A stretch of DNA of 17,614 nucleotides from the IMG/VR virus record IMGVR_UViG_2609459833_000015, positions 1 to 17,614 of that record; one strand, given 5' to 3'. Both the position numbers and the translations under genes were made by a program. The notes under the pieces are model-generated. The model did no database searches. It was not told where the DNA came from and saw nothing but the letters and a program-made list of their open reading frames with translations. This DNA comes from a virus (taxonomy: Duplodnaviria > Heunggongvirae > Uroviricota > Caudoviricetes). Below, one piece after another: positions 5,525 through 9,909 of this stretch (its first letter is position 1; each line of letters starts with the position of its first letter).

Positions 5525-5745
5525 GCCACACCTCCCAGACGCTTAAACATTTTTCCGGAGCAAAAGGCTATAAGCGGCATACTGACGCGGTAATTACGGC
5601 CCAGCGGTTCACAAACCACCTTCTGACATTCACGGTCAACCAGGCTGACACGTAGAACATGCCCTGCAGGCGTGGTGTACCACTGACCAGGACGAGGACA
5701 ACGGAAAGTCTGATTGGTAAACCGTTTGAAAATATTCCGGATCAT
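5521..5745 (-). CDS. Hypothetical small Cys-containing protein
   Basis: ATG 5745 overlaps the Rha stop (ATGA); SD AAGGGGG five nt upstream; 74 aa. Confidence 0.4.
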   Translation of the reverse strand: MIRNIFKRFTNQTFRCPRPGQWYTTPAGHVLRVSLVDRECQKVVCEPLGRNYRVSMPLIAFCSGKMFKRLGGVA

Positions 5746-6287
5746 TTGCGCCCCCTTACCTCTGAAGGGTTCAGCGACAAATTTATGAGACTGGCCAGTA
5801 GCGCCGCGTCGTTGATGCGGTCATACAGACTTACAGCCAGCGGGGATTCGGCTTTTGCCAACATGGGATAAAGCTGCTGCAGCCAGACCTGATGAATTGA
5901 TGAAATGTAGGAATAGAGAACGCTGGCGTTATGTGCAACGTCGCTCAGTACAGAGGGATTTGAAAGCTGTTTCTCCATCTGGTTAAAGGCATTGATGTAT
6001 GCCTCTTTGAACTGGGCAGCACGTTTACCCGTGAAGCCCATGGCAAGAAACGCAAAACCGTCGCGGGTGATTTGATAGCAAGGTAGTTTGCGGCCTGTGC
6101 AATCGGTGTAATCACTCACCGAAAAATTGCGGGAAGTGAATGATGCAGAGCATTCAAGCGTGCGGATCTTTTTCAATACATCGTCATGCTGCTTGCAGAA
6201 ATATTCGGCAACGGCCAAAGAAGAAGTAACAGCCTGACCATCAACGATGGCAATTTCAGGTTGAGTGAGGGTTGGGATCGTAGCCAT
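5742..6287 (-). CDS. Rha-family phage regulatory protein
   Basis: FSVSDYTDCTGRKLPCYQITRDGFAFLAMGFTGKRAAQFKEAYINAFNQME matches the Rha family core as recalled; ATG 6287 with SD GGAGG; the track ORF 5742..6485 has a non-conserved N-terminal extension. Confidence 0.85.
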   Translation of the reverse strand: MATIPTLTQPEIAIVDGQAVTSSLAVAEYFCKQHDDVLKKIRTLECSASFTSRNFSVSDYTDCTGRKLPCYQITRDGFAFLAMGFTGKRAAQFKEAYINAFNQMEKQLSNPSVLSDVAHNASVLYSYISSIHQVWLQQLYPMLAKAESPLAVSLYDRINDAALLASLINLSLNPSEVRGRK

Positions 6288-6487
6288 GATGGCAGCCTCC
6301 GTTGACTGTGGAAAACTTCCACCACCGGAGCTGCGAAACACACAGGTGGCAGACGTACAGGGTTCGCGTACCGGCGTCAACAGACACCGGCGAGCCTTTC
6401 GGCTCCCCTGCACACCCCACCATAATTCTGGAGTGAGGAAACGCGCGCAAAAAAACCGCTGAAGCGTCATATATCGCATTGACAATT

Positions 6488-6883
6488 TCAGGACGCCAAT
6501 CCCGGCACCCGCTTTATAAGGTGCAGAGCAGTGTAACGTCCCGAAATTGCAGAATCAATATGCTGGTGGTCCTTCACACTCAACAAAATCACGCCTGAAT
6601 TTCCACAAAGGACTAAAGCACTCATGCGGGTAGTCTTTGCGAAGATAGATAACGCGCTGTGTTTCTGGCTCCCAACGAATAACATGGACATAAAGCCCTC
6701 TTCCGTCACGAAACCAGCGGTTAAGTTCCTGCACAACTCGCCCCCCACAGTCAGGTAAAGTTCTCTGTGGTTACTTACAGCCAGGTGATTTGGTAATCTG
6801 CATTCATGCCGTAACAACAGGTGTTCAGCGACGCTGACCACCAGCTGTTGCGACAAACGGTTATTTGCCGTTAAACTATTCAT
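6488..6883 (-). CDS. Hypothetical protein
   Basis: ATG 6883 overlaps the upstream stop (ATGA); SD GGAG in TGTGGAGAAACTAACGC; no family recognised. Confidence 0.35.
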   Translation of the reverse strand: MNSLTANNRLSQQLVVSVAEHLLLRHECRLPNHLAVSNHRELYLTVGGELCRNLTAGFVTEEGFMSMLFVGSQKHSALSIFAKTTRMSALVLCGNSGVILLSVKDHQHIDSAISGRYTALHLIKRVPGLAS

Positions 6884-7494
6884 GCGTTAGTTTCTCCACA
6901 ACCAGAAGCAATCGACGCCACGACGCCCGGAGCTGCACACTCGCGGGCGTTACTATTTTCTGGAGCGCAGAAGATTTTGTAGACCAGTGCTGCATGCTCC
7001 TGGAGCTTCGAAATTGAGAGGTACAGCTCGTCGTTAATTGCTGTCTTCTCATGCGGTTCCACTACACCGTCTTCGATTGCTGAACGAATCTGTCTGGAAT
7101 AACTGCCGATCTGTTCAATGACTTCCAGCAGACGCTGGTTAATATCGGCGTTGTCCACATCCTCGACGTCAGGAAGAGACACAAAGACGCCATTTGCAGA
7201 CTGCGCCACAGCGTCAGCAATGAAGTGAGTTCCACCAGCACGTTGTAAAATCATTGCCCATCCCAGCGGGAAAATCTGATCGCCATCGGCACGAAGGCGA
7301 TTGAATAAAGCGTTCTCTGTTACATCCAGCCAGTCAGCTGCTTCAGCGTAACCACCCGGCAACGCTGCGATAGTTTTTCTGACAGCTTTCACGTACCACT
7401 CAGGCTGTTTTTCTACTTTCCAGTGATGCTTACCCACGGTTAGCCTCATCGTTCTGTGGTTTCTGTTAATCGATTTATCCATTAGATTTTTCAT
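6880..7494 (-). CDS. Putative CII-like lysogeny regulator (CP76/YdaT-like)
   Basis: Immediately downstream of the cro-like gene; LDVTENALFNRLRADGDQIFPLGWAMIL region resembles phage regulatory CII (CP76) proteins as recalled; start ambiguous (ATG 7494, 7482 or 7449; the track ORF starts at GTG 7551 and overlaps cro). Confidence 0.45.
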   Translation of the reverse strand: MKNLMDKSINRNHRTMRLTVGKHHWKVEKQPEWYVKAVRKTIAALPGGYAEAADWLDVTENALFNRLRADGDQIFPLGWAMILQRAGGTHFIADAVAQSANGVFVSLPDVEDVDNADINQRLLEVIEQIGSYSRQIRSAIEDGVVEPHEKTAINDELYLSISKLQEHAALVYKIFCAPENSNARECAAPGVVASIASGCGETNA

Positions 7495-7675
7495 AAAGCT
7501 CAGGTTTAAATGGCAACCGTCCGCAAGTTCTATATGCAGCTTCTGCTGCACGTCCTTTTGGAATTAACTGGCCCGGACGGTTTCGCCACTGATAAACGGC
7601 TTCAGTTGTTATGCCGAAAAAAGCAGCAACTTTCTCAATACTGCCGAAGTAGCTTTCGATATCGTCAGTTGTCAT
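7475..7675 (-). CDS. Cro-like HTH regulator (YdaS/Cro family)
   Basis: 66 aa; HTH VAAFFGITTEAVYQWRNR; divergent from the CI repressor; SD GGAGGG before ATG 7675. Confidence 0.7.
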   Translation of the reverse strand: MTTDDIESYFGSIEKVAAFFGITTEAVYQWRNRPGQLIPKGRAAEAAYRTCGRLPFKPELYEKSNG

Positions 7676-7772
7676 ACGCCCTCCAAACTAAGTTTTATTA
7701 GATGCTAATTACAAATCTATCTTTGGTCAATAAAAACTAAGATTACTTAGCAATTCAAGAAATGGTGCTCCT
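7676..7772. promoter_or_regulatory. Immunity-region divergent promoter/operator region (PR-like leftward, PRM-like rightward)
   Basis: 97-bp AT-rich spacer between divergent cro-like and CI genes; minus-strand TTGACC (complement of 7725-7730) with a possible TAGCAT -10; AACTAAG at 7686-7692 and 7735-7741, and inverted CTAAG-N4-CTTAG at 7737-7750. Confidence 0.55.
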
Positions 7773-8399
7773 ATGGAAACGGTTGGTCAGCGTATAAAAG
7801 CTCTGAGAAGAGTTACCGGAACGTCCCAGAAAGAATTGGGTAAATTTTGTGGAGTAAGCGACGTTGCTGTGGGGTACTGGGAGAAAGACATCAATACCCC
7901 TGGTGGGGAGGCACTTTCGAAATTAGCGAAGTTCTTCAATACGTCAATAGATTACATTCTTTATGGTGCTGAGTTTGAAGGCAAACTCGTCACAAACATG
8001 CGCAGAGTTCCTGTAATATCGTGGGTTCAGGCTGGGCAGTTTACTGAGTGCAGGGCAGCAGAAGTGTTTAGTGAAGTGGACAAGTGGGTAGATACATCAT
8101 TAAAGATTGGTGATAACTCATTTGCATTAGAGGTTAAAGGTGACTCCATGACTAACCCTAATGGCCTCCCAACAATACCAGAAGGCGCAACAGTGATTGT
8201 AGATCCAGATGCAGAACCTCGTCATGGAAAAATAGTCATCGCTCGACTTGATGGAACAAACGAAGCTACAGTAAAAAAATTAGTCATCGATGGCCCTCAA
8301 AAGTTTTTAGTGCCATTAAATCCTCGGTATCCCAACATCCCTATCAATGGTAATTGCCTTATCATTGGTGTAGTCAAAGGAGTTCAATACGAACTCTAA
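7773..8399 (+). CDS. CI-like repressor (XRE-family HTH N-terminus, S24 LexA-like peptidase C-terminus)
   Basis: N-terminal HTH QKELGKFCGVSDVAVGYWE; C-terminal GDSM Ser-nucleophile motif and downstream Lys; 208 aa; divergent from cro-like gene. Confidence 0.85.
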   Translation: METVGQRIKALRRVTGTSQKELGKFCGVSDVAVGYWEKDINTPGGEALSKLAKFFNTSIDYILYGAEFEGKLVTNMRRVPVISWVQAGQFTECRAAEVFSEVDKWVDTSLKIGDNSFALEVKGDSMTNPNGLPTIPEGATVIVDPDAEPRHGKIVIARLDGTNEATVKKLVIDGPQKFLVPLNPRYPNIPINGNCLIIGVVKGVQYEL

Positions 8400-8605
8400 G
8401 ACCTCTCTTCTCTAACTAAGGCACCGAACTAAGAAAAGTTTGGTGTTTTCTCTTGCCATAATAACTAAGTTAAGTTAGATTTTATATCAAAGATAACGAA
8501 CAGGCAGGACGCCCACGAAGTAGCCGCCTGGGGCATATGAAGTCCAGGATGATTCGTTGAGTCATGTTGTGCCACCAGGCACTCATGTTAAAGCAGGTGT
8601 ATGAA

Positions 8606-8881
8606 ATGAAAGTCCAGATTTTAAACAATAACTGTGAAGTCGTTTGGTCATACGACATAGCCGCCCCTGTAGATCAGAGCGGCGATAGCTGGACCAATGG
8701 GAAACATCAGATTATGGCTGGAGTTGTGTTCTCTTTACGCCGTGCTTTGGAACAGGCTGAAGTATTTCCATCAGACCCTGAATGGAAATGGCCTTTTTCT
8801 ATTTGTCCAAATTCGGAGAGCACATTTCAGAAAATTGGTCAGAAAGTCGCACTCGAAGAGCATCAGCCAACTGTTTCCTGA
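8606..8881 (+). CDS. Hypothetical protein (first ORF downstream of CI)
   Basis: ATG 8606 with SD AGGTG six nt upstream; 91 aa, acidic, Trp-rich; 3' end overlaps the convergent ORF 8799..9044 by 83 bp and contains a plus-strand hairpin plus T-run. Confidence 0.35.
   Translation: MKVQILNNNCEVVWSYDIAAPVDQSGDSWTNGKHQIMAGVVFSLRRALEQAEVFPSDPEWKWPFSICPNSESTFQKIGQKVALEEHQPTVS
8764..8798 (+). terminator. Candidate intrinsic terminator (plus strand)
   Basis: ATTTCCAT (8764-8771), 10-nt loop, ATGGAAAT (8782-8789), then GGCC and TTTTT (8794-8798); AU-rich stem so likely weak. Confidence 0.3.
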
Positions 8882-9044
8882 TTTTTTCAGGTAACTCGTC
8901 GGCATCGCAGAAACAACAACGCTCGATCATGTTGAAAGCCGATTCGTAGAACTGTTTCTGCTGAGTGTCGCTGAGACAGGAAAAGAGCGACGTTACGATG
9001 ATTTTATTAATTGCATTATCAAGTTCTTTTTCATCAAAAGTCAT
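8799..9044 (-). CDS. Hypothetical protein (convergent to CI)
   Basis: ATG 9044 with SD AAGGA seven nt upstream; 81 aa with helical-looking hydrophilic composition; no family recognised. Confidence 0.4.
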   Translation of the reverse strand: MTFDEKELDNAINKIIVTSLFSCLSDTQQKQFYESAFNMIERCCFCDADELPEKIRKQLADALRVRLSDQFSEMCSPNLDK

Positions 9045-9284
9045 TTGATTTTCCTTTTATGTATACGGGCTTAAAAGGATACCACCGAGCCTGAAGTGGT
9101 GAAAAGACAGGCACATAACAGCTAAGTATTTTCAACCAAAGAGAATCCTTAGCGTTGTGGTGAATGCGGCTCAGCGCACGCGGGTTAAGGTTGAGGCTGA
9201 CAGTCGACCTTCTGTGGATACCCACCCGTCTGGTGTGCAACCTTCGCCAGGCACCGGGAGGCACCCGGCACCACAACTTTATGC

Positions 9285-9344
9285 TGTGTGTAGTCCTGGC
9301 GGTACCAGTTTGTACCCTTGCTTCCGGCTGGTACCGTCCTTTTT
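9285..9344 (+). ncRNA. DicF-like small RNA candidate ending in an intrinsic terminator
   Basis: 11-bp stem GGCGGTACCAG (9298-9308) paired with CTGGTACCGTC (9328-9338) followed by TTTTT (9340-9344); 5' arm GGCGGUACCAGUUUGUACCC closely resembles the DicF segment GGCGGUAUCAGUUUUACUCC as I recall it; 5' end not determinable. Confidence 0.45.
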
Positions 9345-9481
9345 ACAAAACAGAGAAGAGCATCACCGGACGACGGGCTCATAACCCAATCCATCCGGGC
9401 GGCAGTCACCGCAGGTGTTCTTCTCTGTTTTGTGGAGAAACTAACCGACCTTGCAGGGTCGATATGATGAGGAGCAGCAAA

Positions 9482-9844
9482 ATGGCTAGCGAACGCAGTA
9501 CTGATGTGCAGGCATTTATCGGGGAGCTGGACGGCGGCGTATTTGAAACCAAAATCGGCGCAGTTCTCAGTGAAGTCGCTTCCGGTGTGATGAACACGAA
9601 AACCAAAGGTAAGGTCTCACTCAACCTGGAAATCGAACCATTTGATGAGAACCGTGTGAAAATCAAACACAAACTCTCATATGTTCGCCCGACTAACCGC
9701 GGGAAAATTTCCGAAGAAGACACCACCGAAACGCCGATGTATGTCAATCGCGGTGGTCGCCTGACTATTCTGCAGGAAGACCAGGGACAATTACTGACTC
9801 TTGCCGGTGAACCTGACGGAAAACTCCGCGCAGCAGGTCATTAA
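9482..9844 (+). CDS. YfdP-like prophage protein
   Basis: 120 aa from ATG 9482 (SD GAGGAG 9469-9474), matching YfdP length and position upstream of YfdQ/R-like genes; alternative start ATG 9464. Confidence 0.5.
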   Translation: MASERSTDVQAFIGELDGGVFETKIGAVLSEVASGVMNTKTKGKVSLNLEIEPFDENRVKIKHKLSYVRPTNRGKISEEDTTETPMYVNRGGRLTILQEDQGQLLTLAGEPDGKLRAAGH

Positions 9845-9909
9845 TATCGTTCTTAATTAACTGATTATTTATCTCATCACTGAATATCTTAATATAGTGA
9901 GGACTTATT

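What the first reader, a model, noticed from the sequence alone, without database searches (positions are those of the whole stretch)
7686..8469. AACTAAG operator-like motif clustered on both sides of the CI gene
AACTAAG occurs at 7686-7692 and 7735-7741 (with an inverted CTAAG-N4-CTTAG at 7737-7750) between cro and CI, and again at 8414-8420, 8427-8433 and 8463-8469 just downstream of CI. A related CTAAG...CTTAG pair sits at 9122-9152. Five same-strand copies flanking the repressor gene look like OR and OL half-sites. The downstream cluster overlaps a possible promoter (TTGCCA at 8453-8458, 17-nt spacer, TAGATT at 8476-8481), which would make the 91-aa ORF the first PL-operon gene rather than a CI-cotranscribed gene.
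Basis: seen in the sequence. Interest (0 to 1): 0.45.

Follow-up and report, generated by a model that had tools for sequence, protein, structure and literature searches.

The report
Prophage repressor operators flanking cI
The repeated AACTAAG motif is the left half of a 14-bp palindromic binding site for a P22-C2-like prophage repressor, arranged as a classical right operator (cro/cI) and left operator (PL promoter); this is an ordinary lambdoid immunity switch with a binding specificity that I found no experimental description of.

Summary
All five AACTAAG copies, the CTAAG-N4-CTTAG dyad and the TTGCCA-17-TAGATT promoter sit at the stated coordinates. Five same-strand copies within 800 bp never arose in 2000 simulations.

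The functional unit is a 14-bp dyad, CTAA-N6-TTAG.
- It occurs exactly three times in the window: 7688-7701 (OR1), 7737-7750 (OR3) and 8465-8478 (OL1).
- Two degenerate sites sit at conserved positions: 7712-7725 (OR2) and 8429-8442 (OL2, inside the cI terminator hairpin).
- The 8414-8420 copy is not conserved.
- The 9122-9152 pair lies in DNA 99.3% identical to heteroimmune phage SfV, so it is unrelated.

Evidence that these are operators:
- CI is 47% identical to P22 C2, and Cro belongs to the P22_Cro family.
- Promoter and operator geometry matches the annotated P22 immC region. The half-site differs at one position (P22 TTAAG, here CTAAG).
- In 20 relatives from about ten genera that share the recognition helix, 57 of 61 exact dyads fall at the OR or OL positions. 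In 58 loci with other helices there is one dyad in 205 kb.

A terminator separates cI from PL, so the 91-aa ORF is the first PL gene.

This is a new member of a known kind, of modest interest. No binding experiment exists.

The parts
7475..7675 (-). cro (66 aa), P22_Cro family
   Evidence: ORF list. Pfam PF14549, E 4.4e-11. 30% identity to P22 Cro, E 4e-9.
7688..7701 (.). OR1: dyad CTAAGTTTTATTAG. It abuts the PR -10 hexamer and covers the predicted PR start.
   Evidence: Exact CTAA-N6-TTAG. Conserved at about -85 to -88 from the cI start in relatives. Dyad score rank 3 in the window.
7702..7730 (-). PR promoter for cro: -35 TTGACC (7730-7725), 17-nt spacer, -10 TAGCAT (7707-7702)
   Evidence: Promoter scan. 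GGTCAA is nearly invariant and the -10 is TAATAT in relatives. Same placement as the annotated P22 PR.
7712..7725 (.). OR2 (degenerate): CAAATCTATCTTTG, 24 bp from OR1 and 25 bp from OR3, centre to centre
   Evidence: Aligns with the exact dyad CTAATCTTTATTAG in Rahnella loci L013 and L026, and with a perfect right half CTTAG in mEp460. Rank 8 of about 17,600 positions. Inferred to need cooperative binding.
7737..7750 (.). OR3: perfect dyad CTAAGATTACTTAG. It contains TAAGAT (7738-7743), the same hexamer as the annotated P22 PRM -10.
   Evidence: Conserved at -36 to -39 in relatives. P22 PRM annotation and sequence. The PRM assignment here is by homology only.
7773..8399 (+). cI repressor (208 aa): HTH_3 N-domain, S24 self-cleaving C-domain, Ala87-Gly88 cleavage site, Ser125 and Lys168
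   Evidence: Pfam. PDB sequence search: lambda cI C-terminal domain 7.5e-28, P22 C2 N-terminal domain about 2e-9. 47% identity to full-length P22 C2, E 2e-65.
8418..8454 (+). cI terminator: core stem 8422-8429 / 8438-8445 (CACCGAAC / GTTTGGTG), then a T-run
   Evidence: MFE hairpin -15.1 kcal/mol, z -2.6. Compensatory stem changes in relatives, for example CATCAAAC / GTTTGATG. Not listed by the simple terminator scan.
8429..8442 (.). OL2 (degenerate): CTAAGAAAAGTTTG, 36 bp upstream of OL1, on the far side of the PL -35, embedded in the terminator hairpin
   Evidence: 7 of 8 core match. Rank 4 in the window. Left half CTAA[G/A/T] is kept in 25 of the 26 distinct upstream-of-PL relatives. There is an exact dyad at the same position (34 bp) in Yersinia and Providencia loci and in several IMG/VR contigs. 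P22 OL2 lies 35 bp from OL1.
8453..8481 (+). PL promoter: -35 TTGCCA, 17-nt spacer, -10 TAGATT; start predicted near 8488
   Evidence: Promoter scan. Relatives have TTGACC with the same spacing. The annotated P22 PL is TTGACC-17-TAAATT with OL1 starting 6 nt after the -35, the same as here.
8465..8478 (.). OL1: dyad CTAAGTTAAGTTAG, in the PL spacer and overlapping the -10
   Evidence: Top dyad score in the window. CTAAGTTAAGTTAGAT is invariant in 9 sequences from several genera while the flanks vary.
8488..8605 (+). PL leader RNA, with a conserved 5' block and hairpin (8527-8531 paired with 8544-8548)
   Evidence: Shared with heteroimmune phages and at least 120 IMG/VR contigs behind many operator types. 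In the hairpin, 4 of 5 pairs have double-sided changes.
8606..8881 (+). 91-aa ORF (phrog_3195, function unknown), first gene of the PL operon
   Evidence: Annotated as a hypothetical protein in the identical RefSeq region.
8414..8420 (+). AACTAAG copy that is NOT part of the system: no right half-site and not conserved
   Evidence: AACCAAA in mEp460. Variable in relatives. Dyad rank 99.
9122..9152 (.). CTAAG-N21-CTTAG pair that is NOT part of the system
   Evidence: Lies in 8495-9900, which is 99.3% identical to heteroimmune SfV. Overlaps the start of an STnc100-like match at 9132-9347. The spacing is wrong for the dyad.

Best explanation
The motif marks the operators of a lambdoid immunity switch homologous to P22 immC, with a different DNA specificity.

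Binding. Dimers of the 208-aa CI bind 14-bp dyads of the form (AA)CTAAG-N4-nTTAG. CI has a P22-C2-like HTH domain with recognition helix SDVAVGYWEK. Cro is expected to bind the same sites.

Right operator. OR1 (7688-7701) abuts the PR -10 hexamer. The degenerate OR2 (7712-7725) lies in the PR spacer. OR3 (7737-7750) overlaps the PRM -10. CI bound at OR1 and OR2 would block PR and so cro. OR3 would autoregulate cI.

Left operator. An intrinsic terminator (8422-8445 plus a T-run) ends the cI transcript. OL1 (8465-8478) sits in the spacer and -10 of PL (8453-8481). The degenerate OL2 (8429-8442) sits 36 bp upstream, inside the terminator hairpin. Together they would repress PL. PL transcribes a conserved leader and then the 91-aa ORF.

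Induction. SOS induction would proceed through RecA-stimulated self-cleavage at Ala87-Gly88, using Ser125 and Lys168.

Shown by computation: the positions, enrichment and conservation of the sites, the homology to P22, and the link to the recognition helix.

Inferred, not shown: binding, cooperativity, transcription start sites, and repression or activation.
For: Enrichment and placement. The exact dyad occurs 3 times against 0.3 expected, only in the two intergenic regions flanking cI. A dyad matrix built from relatives, with the window excluded, ranks OL1, OR3, OR1 and OL2 as numbers 1 to 4 and OR2 as number 8 of about 17,600 positions.

Conservation. Sites lie at about -87, -63 and -38 and near +690 from the cI start. 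This holds in relatives at 63-90% amino-acid identity from Enterobacter, Kosakonia, Kluyvera, Serratia, Rahnella, Yersinia, Rouxiella, Providencia and Proteus, while flanking bases diverge.

Specificity link.
- 20 loci with helix GVS[DG]V[AST]VGYWE carry 61 exact dyads in 71 kb, 57 of them at the OR or OL positions.
- 58 loci with other helices carry 1 dyad in 205 kb, and none in the AT-rich Proteus, Xenorhabdus and Photorhabdus members.
- IMG/VR contigs with the helix have 48 dyads in 16 loci (0.26 per kb). Those without have 0.024 per kb.
- Heteroimmune SfV, SfII, P22 and HK022 regions have none.

Homology to P22. CI is 47% identical to P22 C2 and Cro is in the P22_Cro family. In the annotated P22 record:
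- PL is TTGACC-17-TAAATT, with OL1 starting 6 nt after the -35 and OL2 35 bp upstream.
- The PR -35 lies between OR2 and OR3.
- The PRM -10 is TAAGAT, inside OR3.
All of these match the window.

Cassette boundaries. The window differs from SfV only over 7462-8494. SfV and SfII carry their own repeats at the same PL position.

Terminator. The hairpin has dG -15.1 kcal/mol and z -2.6, with compensatory changes in relatives.

Direction of transcription. A covarying hairpin with G-U pairs on the + strand lies just downstream of PL.
Against: - There are no binding, footprint, reporter or transcript data for this repressor. I found no paper describing this specificity.
- OR2 and OL2 are degenerate in the window. 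OR2 scores -0.8 and OL2 6.9, against 19-30 for the three strong sites.
- The matrix was built from exact-core hits, so it is partly circular.
- OL2 cannot be cleanly separated from constraints on the terminator stem.
- The window's PL -35 (TTGCCA) is weaker than the TTGACC of relatives.
- The simple terminator scan did not list the cI terminator.
- Many control loci are GC-rich Pseudomonas, which lowers the chance rate of an AT-rich motif.
Confidence: 0.85

Rival explanations
1. The copies are chance or low-complexity occurrences of an A/T-rich heptamer in A/T-rich intergenic DNA, with no function.
For: The heptamer count alone is only mildly above expectation: 5 against 1.75, and 4 of 200 shuffles reach 5. 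CTAAG is not enriched in the window. The cro-cI spacer is 68% A+T. The dyad with up to one mismatch is not enriched: 5 against 5.06.
Against: Five same-strand copies within 800 bp arose in 0 of 2000 simulations. The exact dyad occurs 3 times against 0.3 expected, all flanking cI. Its position is conserved across genera while neighbouring bases change. It is present only where the repressor has the matching recognition helix.
Confidence: 0.02
2. The same-strand AACTAAG repeats are direct-repeat sites for another regulator, for example the CII-like activator (CP76 family, 6880-7551), or for an architectural protein. They would not be dyad operators of CI and Cro.
For: All five copies are on one strand. 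A CII-like gene is adjacent. Lambda CII is known to bind direct repeats (general knowledge).
Against: Three copies are the left arms of exact 14-bp dyads, and a fourth is the left arm of a 7-of-8 dyad. The right arms are conserved as well. The layout is base-for-base analogous to the P22 C2 operators. The motif tracks the CI recognition helix. The cII-like gene is shared at about 90% identity with heteroimmune SfV and SfII, which lack the motif.
Confidence: 0.03
3. Only the OR sites and OL1 are operators. The downstream copies at 8414-8433 exist solely because of the cI terminator hairpin and its A-rich 5' flank, so there is no OL2.
For: 8427-8433 spans the 5' stem and loop of the hairpin. 8418-8421 pairs with the U-tract in the MFE fold. 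The right half GTTTG departs from the consensus exactly where the stem needs it. The 36-bp spacing to OL1 is not an integral number of helical turns.
Against: Terminator loops are normally free to vary, yet CTAA[G/A/T] is kept in 25 of the 26 distinct upstream-of-PL relatives. In relatives without that hairpin, an exact dyad occupies the same position 34 bp from OL1. P22 has OL2 35 bp from OL1. The site ranks 4th in the window.
Confidence: 0.25

Closest known systems
Salmonella phage P22 immC region (C2 repressor, Cro, OR1-3, OL1-3, PR/PRM/PL)
   Same: The repressor is 47% identical over its full length, and Cro is in the same Pfam family. The dyads share the AAG-N4-CTT core. OR site spacing is 24 and 25 bp here, against 23 and 25 bp in P22. 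The PR -35 lies between OR2 and OR3. TAAGAT sits in OR3 where P22 has its PRM -10. PL is TTGnCn-17-TAnATT with OL1 starting 6 nt after the -35. OL2 is 35-36 bp upstream.
   Different: The half-site is AACTAAG rather than ATTTAAG, so the outermost base pair of the 14-mer is C:G rather than T:A. The recognition helix is SDVAVGYWEK against SNVAISQWER: N32D, I35V, S36G and Q37Y, with V33 kept. There is no OL3, and OL2 is merged with the cI terminator. cI has a leader of about 24 nt, whereas the P22 c2 start is nearly leaderless. The PL leader has no gene-24 (N-like) protein and no boxA or boxB. The genome backbone is SfV/CPS-53-like, not P22-like.
Phage lambda cI/Cro with OR and OL
   Same: The C-terminal domain is homologous to lambda cI (E 7.5e-28), with the Ala-Gly cleavage site and Ser/Lys dyad. 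OR is tripartite, with an OL at PL downstream of cI. The 5' part of the PL leader resembles lambda AUCAGCAGGACGC (my recollection for lambda; checked for P22).
   Different: The N-terminal DNA-binding domain and the operator sequence are unrelated to lambda's 17-bp TATCACCGC-type sites. There is no rexAB between cI and PL, and no N/nut.
Shigella phage SfV and SfII immunity regions (same phage backbone)
   Same: The flanks are nearly identical: 6800-7461 at 90-92%, 8495-9900 at 99.3% to SfV, and segments at 94-98% to SfII. The order is the same: cro, operators, cI, terminator, PL with operators, conserved leader. The SfV record annotates a 'putative operator region' and a terminator at the corresponding places.
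   Different: cI, cro and the operator repeats differ: TGTACC-type in SfV and TTGCGCAA-type in SfII, with no CTAA-N6-TTAG. These phages are heteroimmune.

Membership tests
Lambdoid (P22 immC-type) CI/Cro immunity switch | Repressor with an N-terminal HTH and a C-terminal S24 self-cleaving domain, carrying an Ala-Gly site and a Ser/Lys dyad | tested here: met
   Pfam HTH_3 and Peptidase_S24. Alignments to lambda cI and P22 C2 show VQA87-G88, GDS125M and VK168K.
Lambdoid (P22 immC-type) CI/Cro immunity switch | Divergently transcribed cro next to cI | tested here: met
   cro at 7475-7675 (-) and cI at 7773-8399 (+), with a 97-bp spacer. P22_Cro Pfam match.
Lambdoid (P22 immC-type) CI/Cro immunity switch | Three dyad-symmetric operators about 24 bp apart in the cro-cI spacer, overlapping PR and PRM | tested here: met
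   OR1 and OR3 are exact dyads. OR2 is degenerate in the window but exact in Rahnella relatives. Centre spacings are 24 and 25 bp. PR TTGACC-17-TAGCAT abuts OR1.
Lambdoid (P22 immC-type) CI/Cro immunity switch | Second operator set overlapping a PL promoter downstream of the repressor gene | tested here: met
   OL1 lies in the PL spacer and -10, and OL2 is 36 bp upstream. The geometry is the same as in annotated P22.
Lambdoid (P22 immC-type) CI/Cro immunity switch | Operator sequence specific to the immunity type: it co-occurs with the recognition helix and moves as a cassette | tested here: met
   61 dyads in 20 loci with the helix, against 1 in 58 loci without it. In IMG/VR contigs, 0.26 against 0.024 per kb. 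The cassette relative to SfV is 7462-8494.
Lambdoid (P22 immC-type) CI/Cro immunity switch | Repressor and Cro physically bind the sites and repress PR and PL | not testable with these tools
   Needs EMSA or footprinting and reporter assays. No publication was found.
P22 immunity specificity (same operator as P22 C2) | Half-site ATTTAAG, i.e. 14-mer core TTAAG-N4-CTTAA | tested here: not met
   The window sites are CTAAG-N4-nTTAG. The P22 immC region contains no CTAA-N6-TTAG.
P22 immunity specificity (same operator as P22 C2) | Recognition helix SNVAISQWER | tested here: not met
   The helix here is SDVAVGYWEK.
N/nut antitermination at PL (lambda, P22) | boxA (GCTCTTTAA) and boxB in the PL leader, plus an Arg-rich N-like first gene | tested here: not met
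   There is no boxA within one mismatch in 8482-8605 or near cro. The 91-aa product is not Arg-rich. Some relatives with the same immunity do carry GCTCTTTAACAA after the leader hairpin.

The most novel reading that the evidence does not exclude
Two things go beyond a routine immunity region.

(a) The upstream PL operator (OL2) and the cI transcription terminator are written in the same roughly 24 nucleotides, across a whole family of phages.

(b) PL transcripts of many heteroimmune enterobacterial lambdoid phages begin with an unannotated conserved RNA element of about 60 nt. It comprises an invariant 5' block, a covarying 5-bp hairpin with a GGCRUAYGAAG-type loop, and GAUGAUUCG. It is absent from Rfam and of unknown function, and could be a cis-acting leader element controlling early-left expression in phages that lack N/nut.

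Separately, the natural T-to-C change in the half-site, paired with N32D, S36G and Q37Y in the helix, would be a usable data point for a C2-family recognition code.
Probability: 0.35. Interest if true: 0.5.

Novelty: new member of a known kind. Interest (0 to 1): 0.3.

Why it matters
- **Immunity type.** The result defines, in silico, the operator sequence and promoter layout of an immunity type that is common in E. coli. At least 128 of 5426 complete genomes carry 80% or more of the 7400-9200 region. The type also occurs in at least nine other enterobacterial genera.
- **Annotation.** It corrects how the region should be annotated: cI ends at its own terminator, and the 91-aa gene belongs to the repressed PL operon.
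- **Specificity pair.** It gives a natural specificity pair with P22 C2 (TTAAG against CTAAG) for studying HTH recognition.
- **Overall.** The biology is otherwise textbook.

Tried and rejected
- **Rfam.** The gathering search of the whole window and the E-value search of 8380-9500 found nothing over the operators or the PL leader. Hits were C4 and isrK at 6342-6524 and a sub-threshold STnc100 match at 9132-9347.
- **Dyad with one mismatch.** Not enriched window-wide (5 against 5.06). Only the exact core and the position-specific matrix discriminate.
- **Terminator scan.** The simple scan did not report the cI terminator. It was established by folding and compensatory changes instead.
- **An OL3.** No site lies 19-24 bp upstream of OL2. 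The 8414 copy has no right arm.
- **The 9122-9152 pair as an operator.** Rejected, because that DNA is shared with heteroimmune SfV.
- **N/nut or HK022-put-like reading of the PL leader.**
  - There is no boxA.
  - The 91-aa protein is not N-like.
  - HK022 lacks the leader motif.
  - Single-sequence folding of the leader is not unusually stable (z -0.56). Only the covariation test supports the hairpin.
  - The outer helix I proposed (columns 31-34 with 69-72) shows no double-sided changes.
- **Literature.** Searches for the motif, for mEp460 and for the leader sequence found no description. One paper's EMSA oligos share a 15-nt flank with 8455-8469, of unknown origin.
Full report
**Context.** The window is part of an E. 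coli lambdoid prophage of the SfV/CPS-53 type.
- 7400-9200 is 100% identical to several E. coli chromosomes. At least 80% of it is present in 128 of 5426 complete genomes.
- Parts of it match phages vB_EcoM-689R6, mEp460, Kati, LLS, SfV and SfII.
- cro (7475-7675, - strand, 66 aa) is a P22_Cro family member.
- cI (7773-8399, + strand, 208 aa) has HTH_3 and Peptidase_S24 domains.
- The cI C-domain matches lambda cI (E 7.5e-28) and its N-domain matches the P22 C2 DNA-binding domain (E about 2e-9).
- Over its full length cI is 47% identical to P22 C2 (E 2e-65). It keeps the Ala-Gly cleavage site and the Ser/Lys catalytic pair.

**Checking the observation.**
- AACTAAG occurs five times, all on the + strand, at 7686, 7735, 8414, 8427 and 8463, and nowhere else.
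- The count alone is modest: 5 against 1.75 expected, with 4 of 200 shuffles reaching 5.
- The clustering is decisive: five same-strand copies within 800 bp appeared in none of 2000 Markov simulations.
- The pentamer CTAAG is not enriched in the window.

**What the unit really is.** Three of the copies are the left arms of a 14-bp dyad, CTAA-N6-TTAG.
- The three dyads are CTAAGTTTTATTAG (7688-7701), CTAAGATTACTTAG (7737-7750) and CTAAGTTAAGTTAG (8465-8478).
- These are the only exact matches in 17.6 kb, against 0.3 expected (P about 0.0015). All lie in the two intergenic regions flanking cI.
- I built a half-site matrix from relatives only. With it, the four best dyads in the window are 8465, 7737, 7688 and 8429 (CTAAGAAAAGTTTG).
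- 7712 (CAAATCTATCTTTG) ranks 8th. The fifth heptamer copy, at 8414-8420, ranks 99th because it has no right arm.

**Comparative evidence.** A scan of one genome per species returned 79 loci encoding relatives of this CI.
- Twenty of them, at 63-90% identity, come from Enterobacter, Kosakonia, Kluyvera, Serratia, Rahnella, Yersinia, Rouxiella, Providencia and Proteus. All keep the recognition helix GVS[DG]V[AST]VGYWE.
- These 20 loci carry 61 exact dyads in 71 kb. 57 of them lie within 130 bp upstream of cI or 620-760 bp downstream of its start.
- The other 58 loci have different helices and include AT-rich Proteus, Xenorhabdus and Photorhabdus. They carry one dyad in 205 kb.
- In IMG/VR contigs the figures are 48 dyads in 16 loci with the helix (three per locus) against 0.024 per kb in 64 loci without it.
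- Alignments show dyad arms, the PR -35 (GGTCAA on the + strand) and the PR -10 conserved while the surrounding bases vary.
- OL1 plus the first bases of the -10 (CTAAGTTAAGTTAGAT) is invariant in nine sequences.
- The middle OR site is an exact dyad in Rahnella (CTAATCTTTATTAG at -63) and has a perfect right arm in mEp460. This fixes 7712-7725 as OR2.
- SfV and SfII share the flanks (6800-7461 at 90-92% in both; 8495-9900 at 99.3% in SfV). They have different cI and cro genes, carry their own repeats at the same places, and have no CTAA-N6-TTAG.
- The exchanged cassette is therefore 7462-8494: cro, OR, cI, terminator and PL/OL. That is the classical definition of an immunity region.

**Homology with a characterised system.** I read the annotated P22 record.
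- P22 PL is TTGACC-17-TAAATT, with the OL1 core TTAAGAAGTCTTAA beginning 6 nt after the -35 and OL2 35 bp upstream of OL1.
- The window has TTGCCA-17-TAGATT, with CTAAGTTAAGTTAG beginning 6 nt after the -35 and the 8429 site 36 bp upstream.
- On the right side, the P22 PR -35 lies between OR2 and OR3, its PR -10 abuts OR1, and its PRM -10 is TAAGAT inside OR3.
- The window has the PR -35 TTGACC at 7730-7725, the -10 TAGCAT at 7707-7702 abutting OR1, and TAAGAT at 7738-7743 inside OR3.
- Centre spacings are 24 and 25 bp here, against 23 and 25 bp in P22.
- The difference is one base pair of the half-site: P22 ATTTAAG against AACTAAG here. It is accompanied by helix changes N32D, I35V, S36G and Q37Y, with V33 retained.
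- A published simulation study of the P22 complex attributes TTAA recognition to Val33 and to apolar contacts of Gln37 with thymine methyls (PMC5175364). A Q37Y change alongside loss of one thymine is therefore plausible, but that is inference.

**The downstream cluster in detail.**
- 8418-8449 folds into a hairpin (dG -15.1 kcal/mol, z -2.6). Its core stem, CACCGAAC / GTTTGGTG, is followed by TTTTCTCTT.
- Relatives show compensatory changes, for example CATCAAAC / GTTTGATG. This is the cI terminator, and SfV and SfII have annotated terminators at the same place.
- The AACTAAG copy at 8427-8433 spans the stem-loop junction. Its CTAA[G/A/T] is kept in 25 of the 26 distinct upstream-of-PL relatives.
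- More distant relatives have an exact dyad at that position, 34 bp from OL1.
- I therefore read 8429-8442 as a weak OL2 superimposed on the terminator. A terminator-only explanation keeps about 0.25 probability.
- The copy at 8414-8420 is not conserved (AACCAAA in mEp460) and is best treated as incidental.

**PL and the 91-aa ORF.**
- Downstream of PL, from 8495, the sequence is shared with heteroimmune phages: SfII, SfV, SfIV, ST64B, SPN3UB, mEp237, YeP1-3, ZF40 and phiNP. It is never annotated in them.
- The same sequence follows many different PL/OL types in at least 120 IMG/VR contigs, including P22-type TTAAG and lambda-type operators.
- Its 5' block resembles the start of the P22 PL transcript, AUCAGCAGGACGC.
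- A hairpin (8527-8531 with 8544-8548) has double-sided changes in 4 of 5 pairs and is 96.9% paired. 0 of 500 shuffles reach the observed covariation score. Its few G-U pairs would be A-C on the other strand.
- This argues that the + strand is transcribed here, consistent with PL.
- There is no boxA and no N-like protein.

**The 9122-9152 pair.**
- It has 21-nt spacing and lies in DNA 99.3% identical to heteroimmune SfV.
- It also lies at the 5' edge of an STnc100-like sRNA match (9132-9347, 39.5 bits, below the gathering score of 47).
- It is not part of the immunity system.

**Novelty and verdict.**
- Only five phage records carry this N-domain at 90% identity or more: vB_EcoM-689R6, vB_EcoS-569R4, Kati, mEp460_4F5 and LLS.
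- None has annotated operators. Literature searches found no description of this specificity.
- The finding is real and the interpretation essentially correct. It is an ordinary lambdoid immunity switch, a heteroimmune relative of P22 immC, so it is a new member of a known kind.
- Confidence that these are CI/Cro operators is 0.85. The missing piece is any binding or expression experiment.

Noticed in passing
window 8495-8560 (+); alignment A1; loci L087-L166: The PL leader begins with a conserved element of about 60 nt: ACAGGCAGGACGCCCACGAAGUAGCC, a hairpin (8527-8531 with 8544-8548), then GAUGAUUCG. It is shared by many heteroimmune enterobacterial phages (SfII, SfV, SfIV, ST64B, SPN3UB, mEp237, ZF40 and others) and by at least 120 IMG/VR contigs. 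The hairpin shows strong covariation: 4 of 5 pairs change on both sides. There is no Rfam hit and no annotation in any record. It is absent from HK022. Function unknown.
   Followed up: partly
window 9132-9347 (+): Sub-threshold match to the Rfam sRNA family STnc100 (39.5 bits, gathering score 47, E 7e-7). It ends in a hairpin and T-run near 9300-9345, inside the long non-coding stretch between the 81-aa ORF and the yfdP-like gene. That hairpin would be a terminator within the PL operon.
   Followed up: no
window 6342-6427 (-) and 6449-6524 (-): C4 antisense RNA (65 bits) and isrK (54 bits) lie immediately upstream of a Rha-domain ORF (5742-6485, -). This looks like a P1/P7 immI-like or Gifsy isrK-like antirepressor control module, a second regulatory layer in the same prophage. 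The listed TTG start of the 247-aa ORF overlaps the C4 RNA and is probably too far upstream.
   Followed up: no
window 8606-8881 (+) and 8799-9044 (-): Two convergent ORFs overlap by 83 nt. Both match PHROG families end to end: phrog_3195 (E 4e-65) and phrog_3311 (E 1e-55). RefSeq annotates only the + strand ORF in the identical region. The - strand gene would be antisense within the PL operon, like a moron.
   Followed up: no
window 9164-9844 (+): A 226-aa ORF fuses about 100 N-terminal residues of GC-rich, probably non-coding sequence to a YfdP-like domain (phrog_204 covers residues 101-225). RefSeq calls a frameshifted pseudogene plus yfdP in the closely related H1827/12 locus. The real gene is probably about 9483-9844.
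   Followed up: no
window 8455-8469: The 15-mer GCCATAATAACTAAG, spanning the PL -35 to OL1, is identical to the right-hand flank of the EMSA oligonucleotides used for Stx-phage BAA2326 operators in PMC5977221. I could not determine where that flank came from.
   Followed up: partly
loci L005, L090 and others (relatives with the same immunity): In some phages with the same cI and operators, the DNA after the leader hairpin is replaced by a segment carrying a hairpin followed by a boxA-like GCTCTTTAACAA. The window lacks this. The recombination junction is at about 8558.
   Followed up: no
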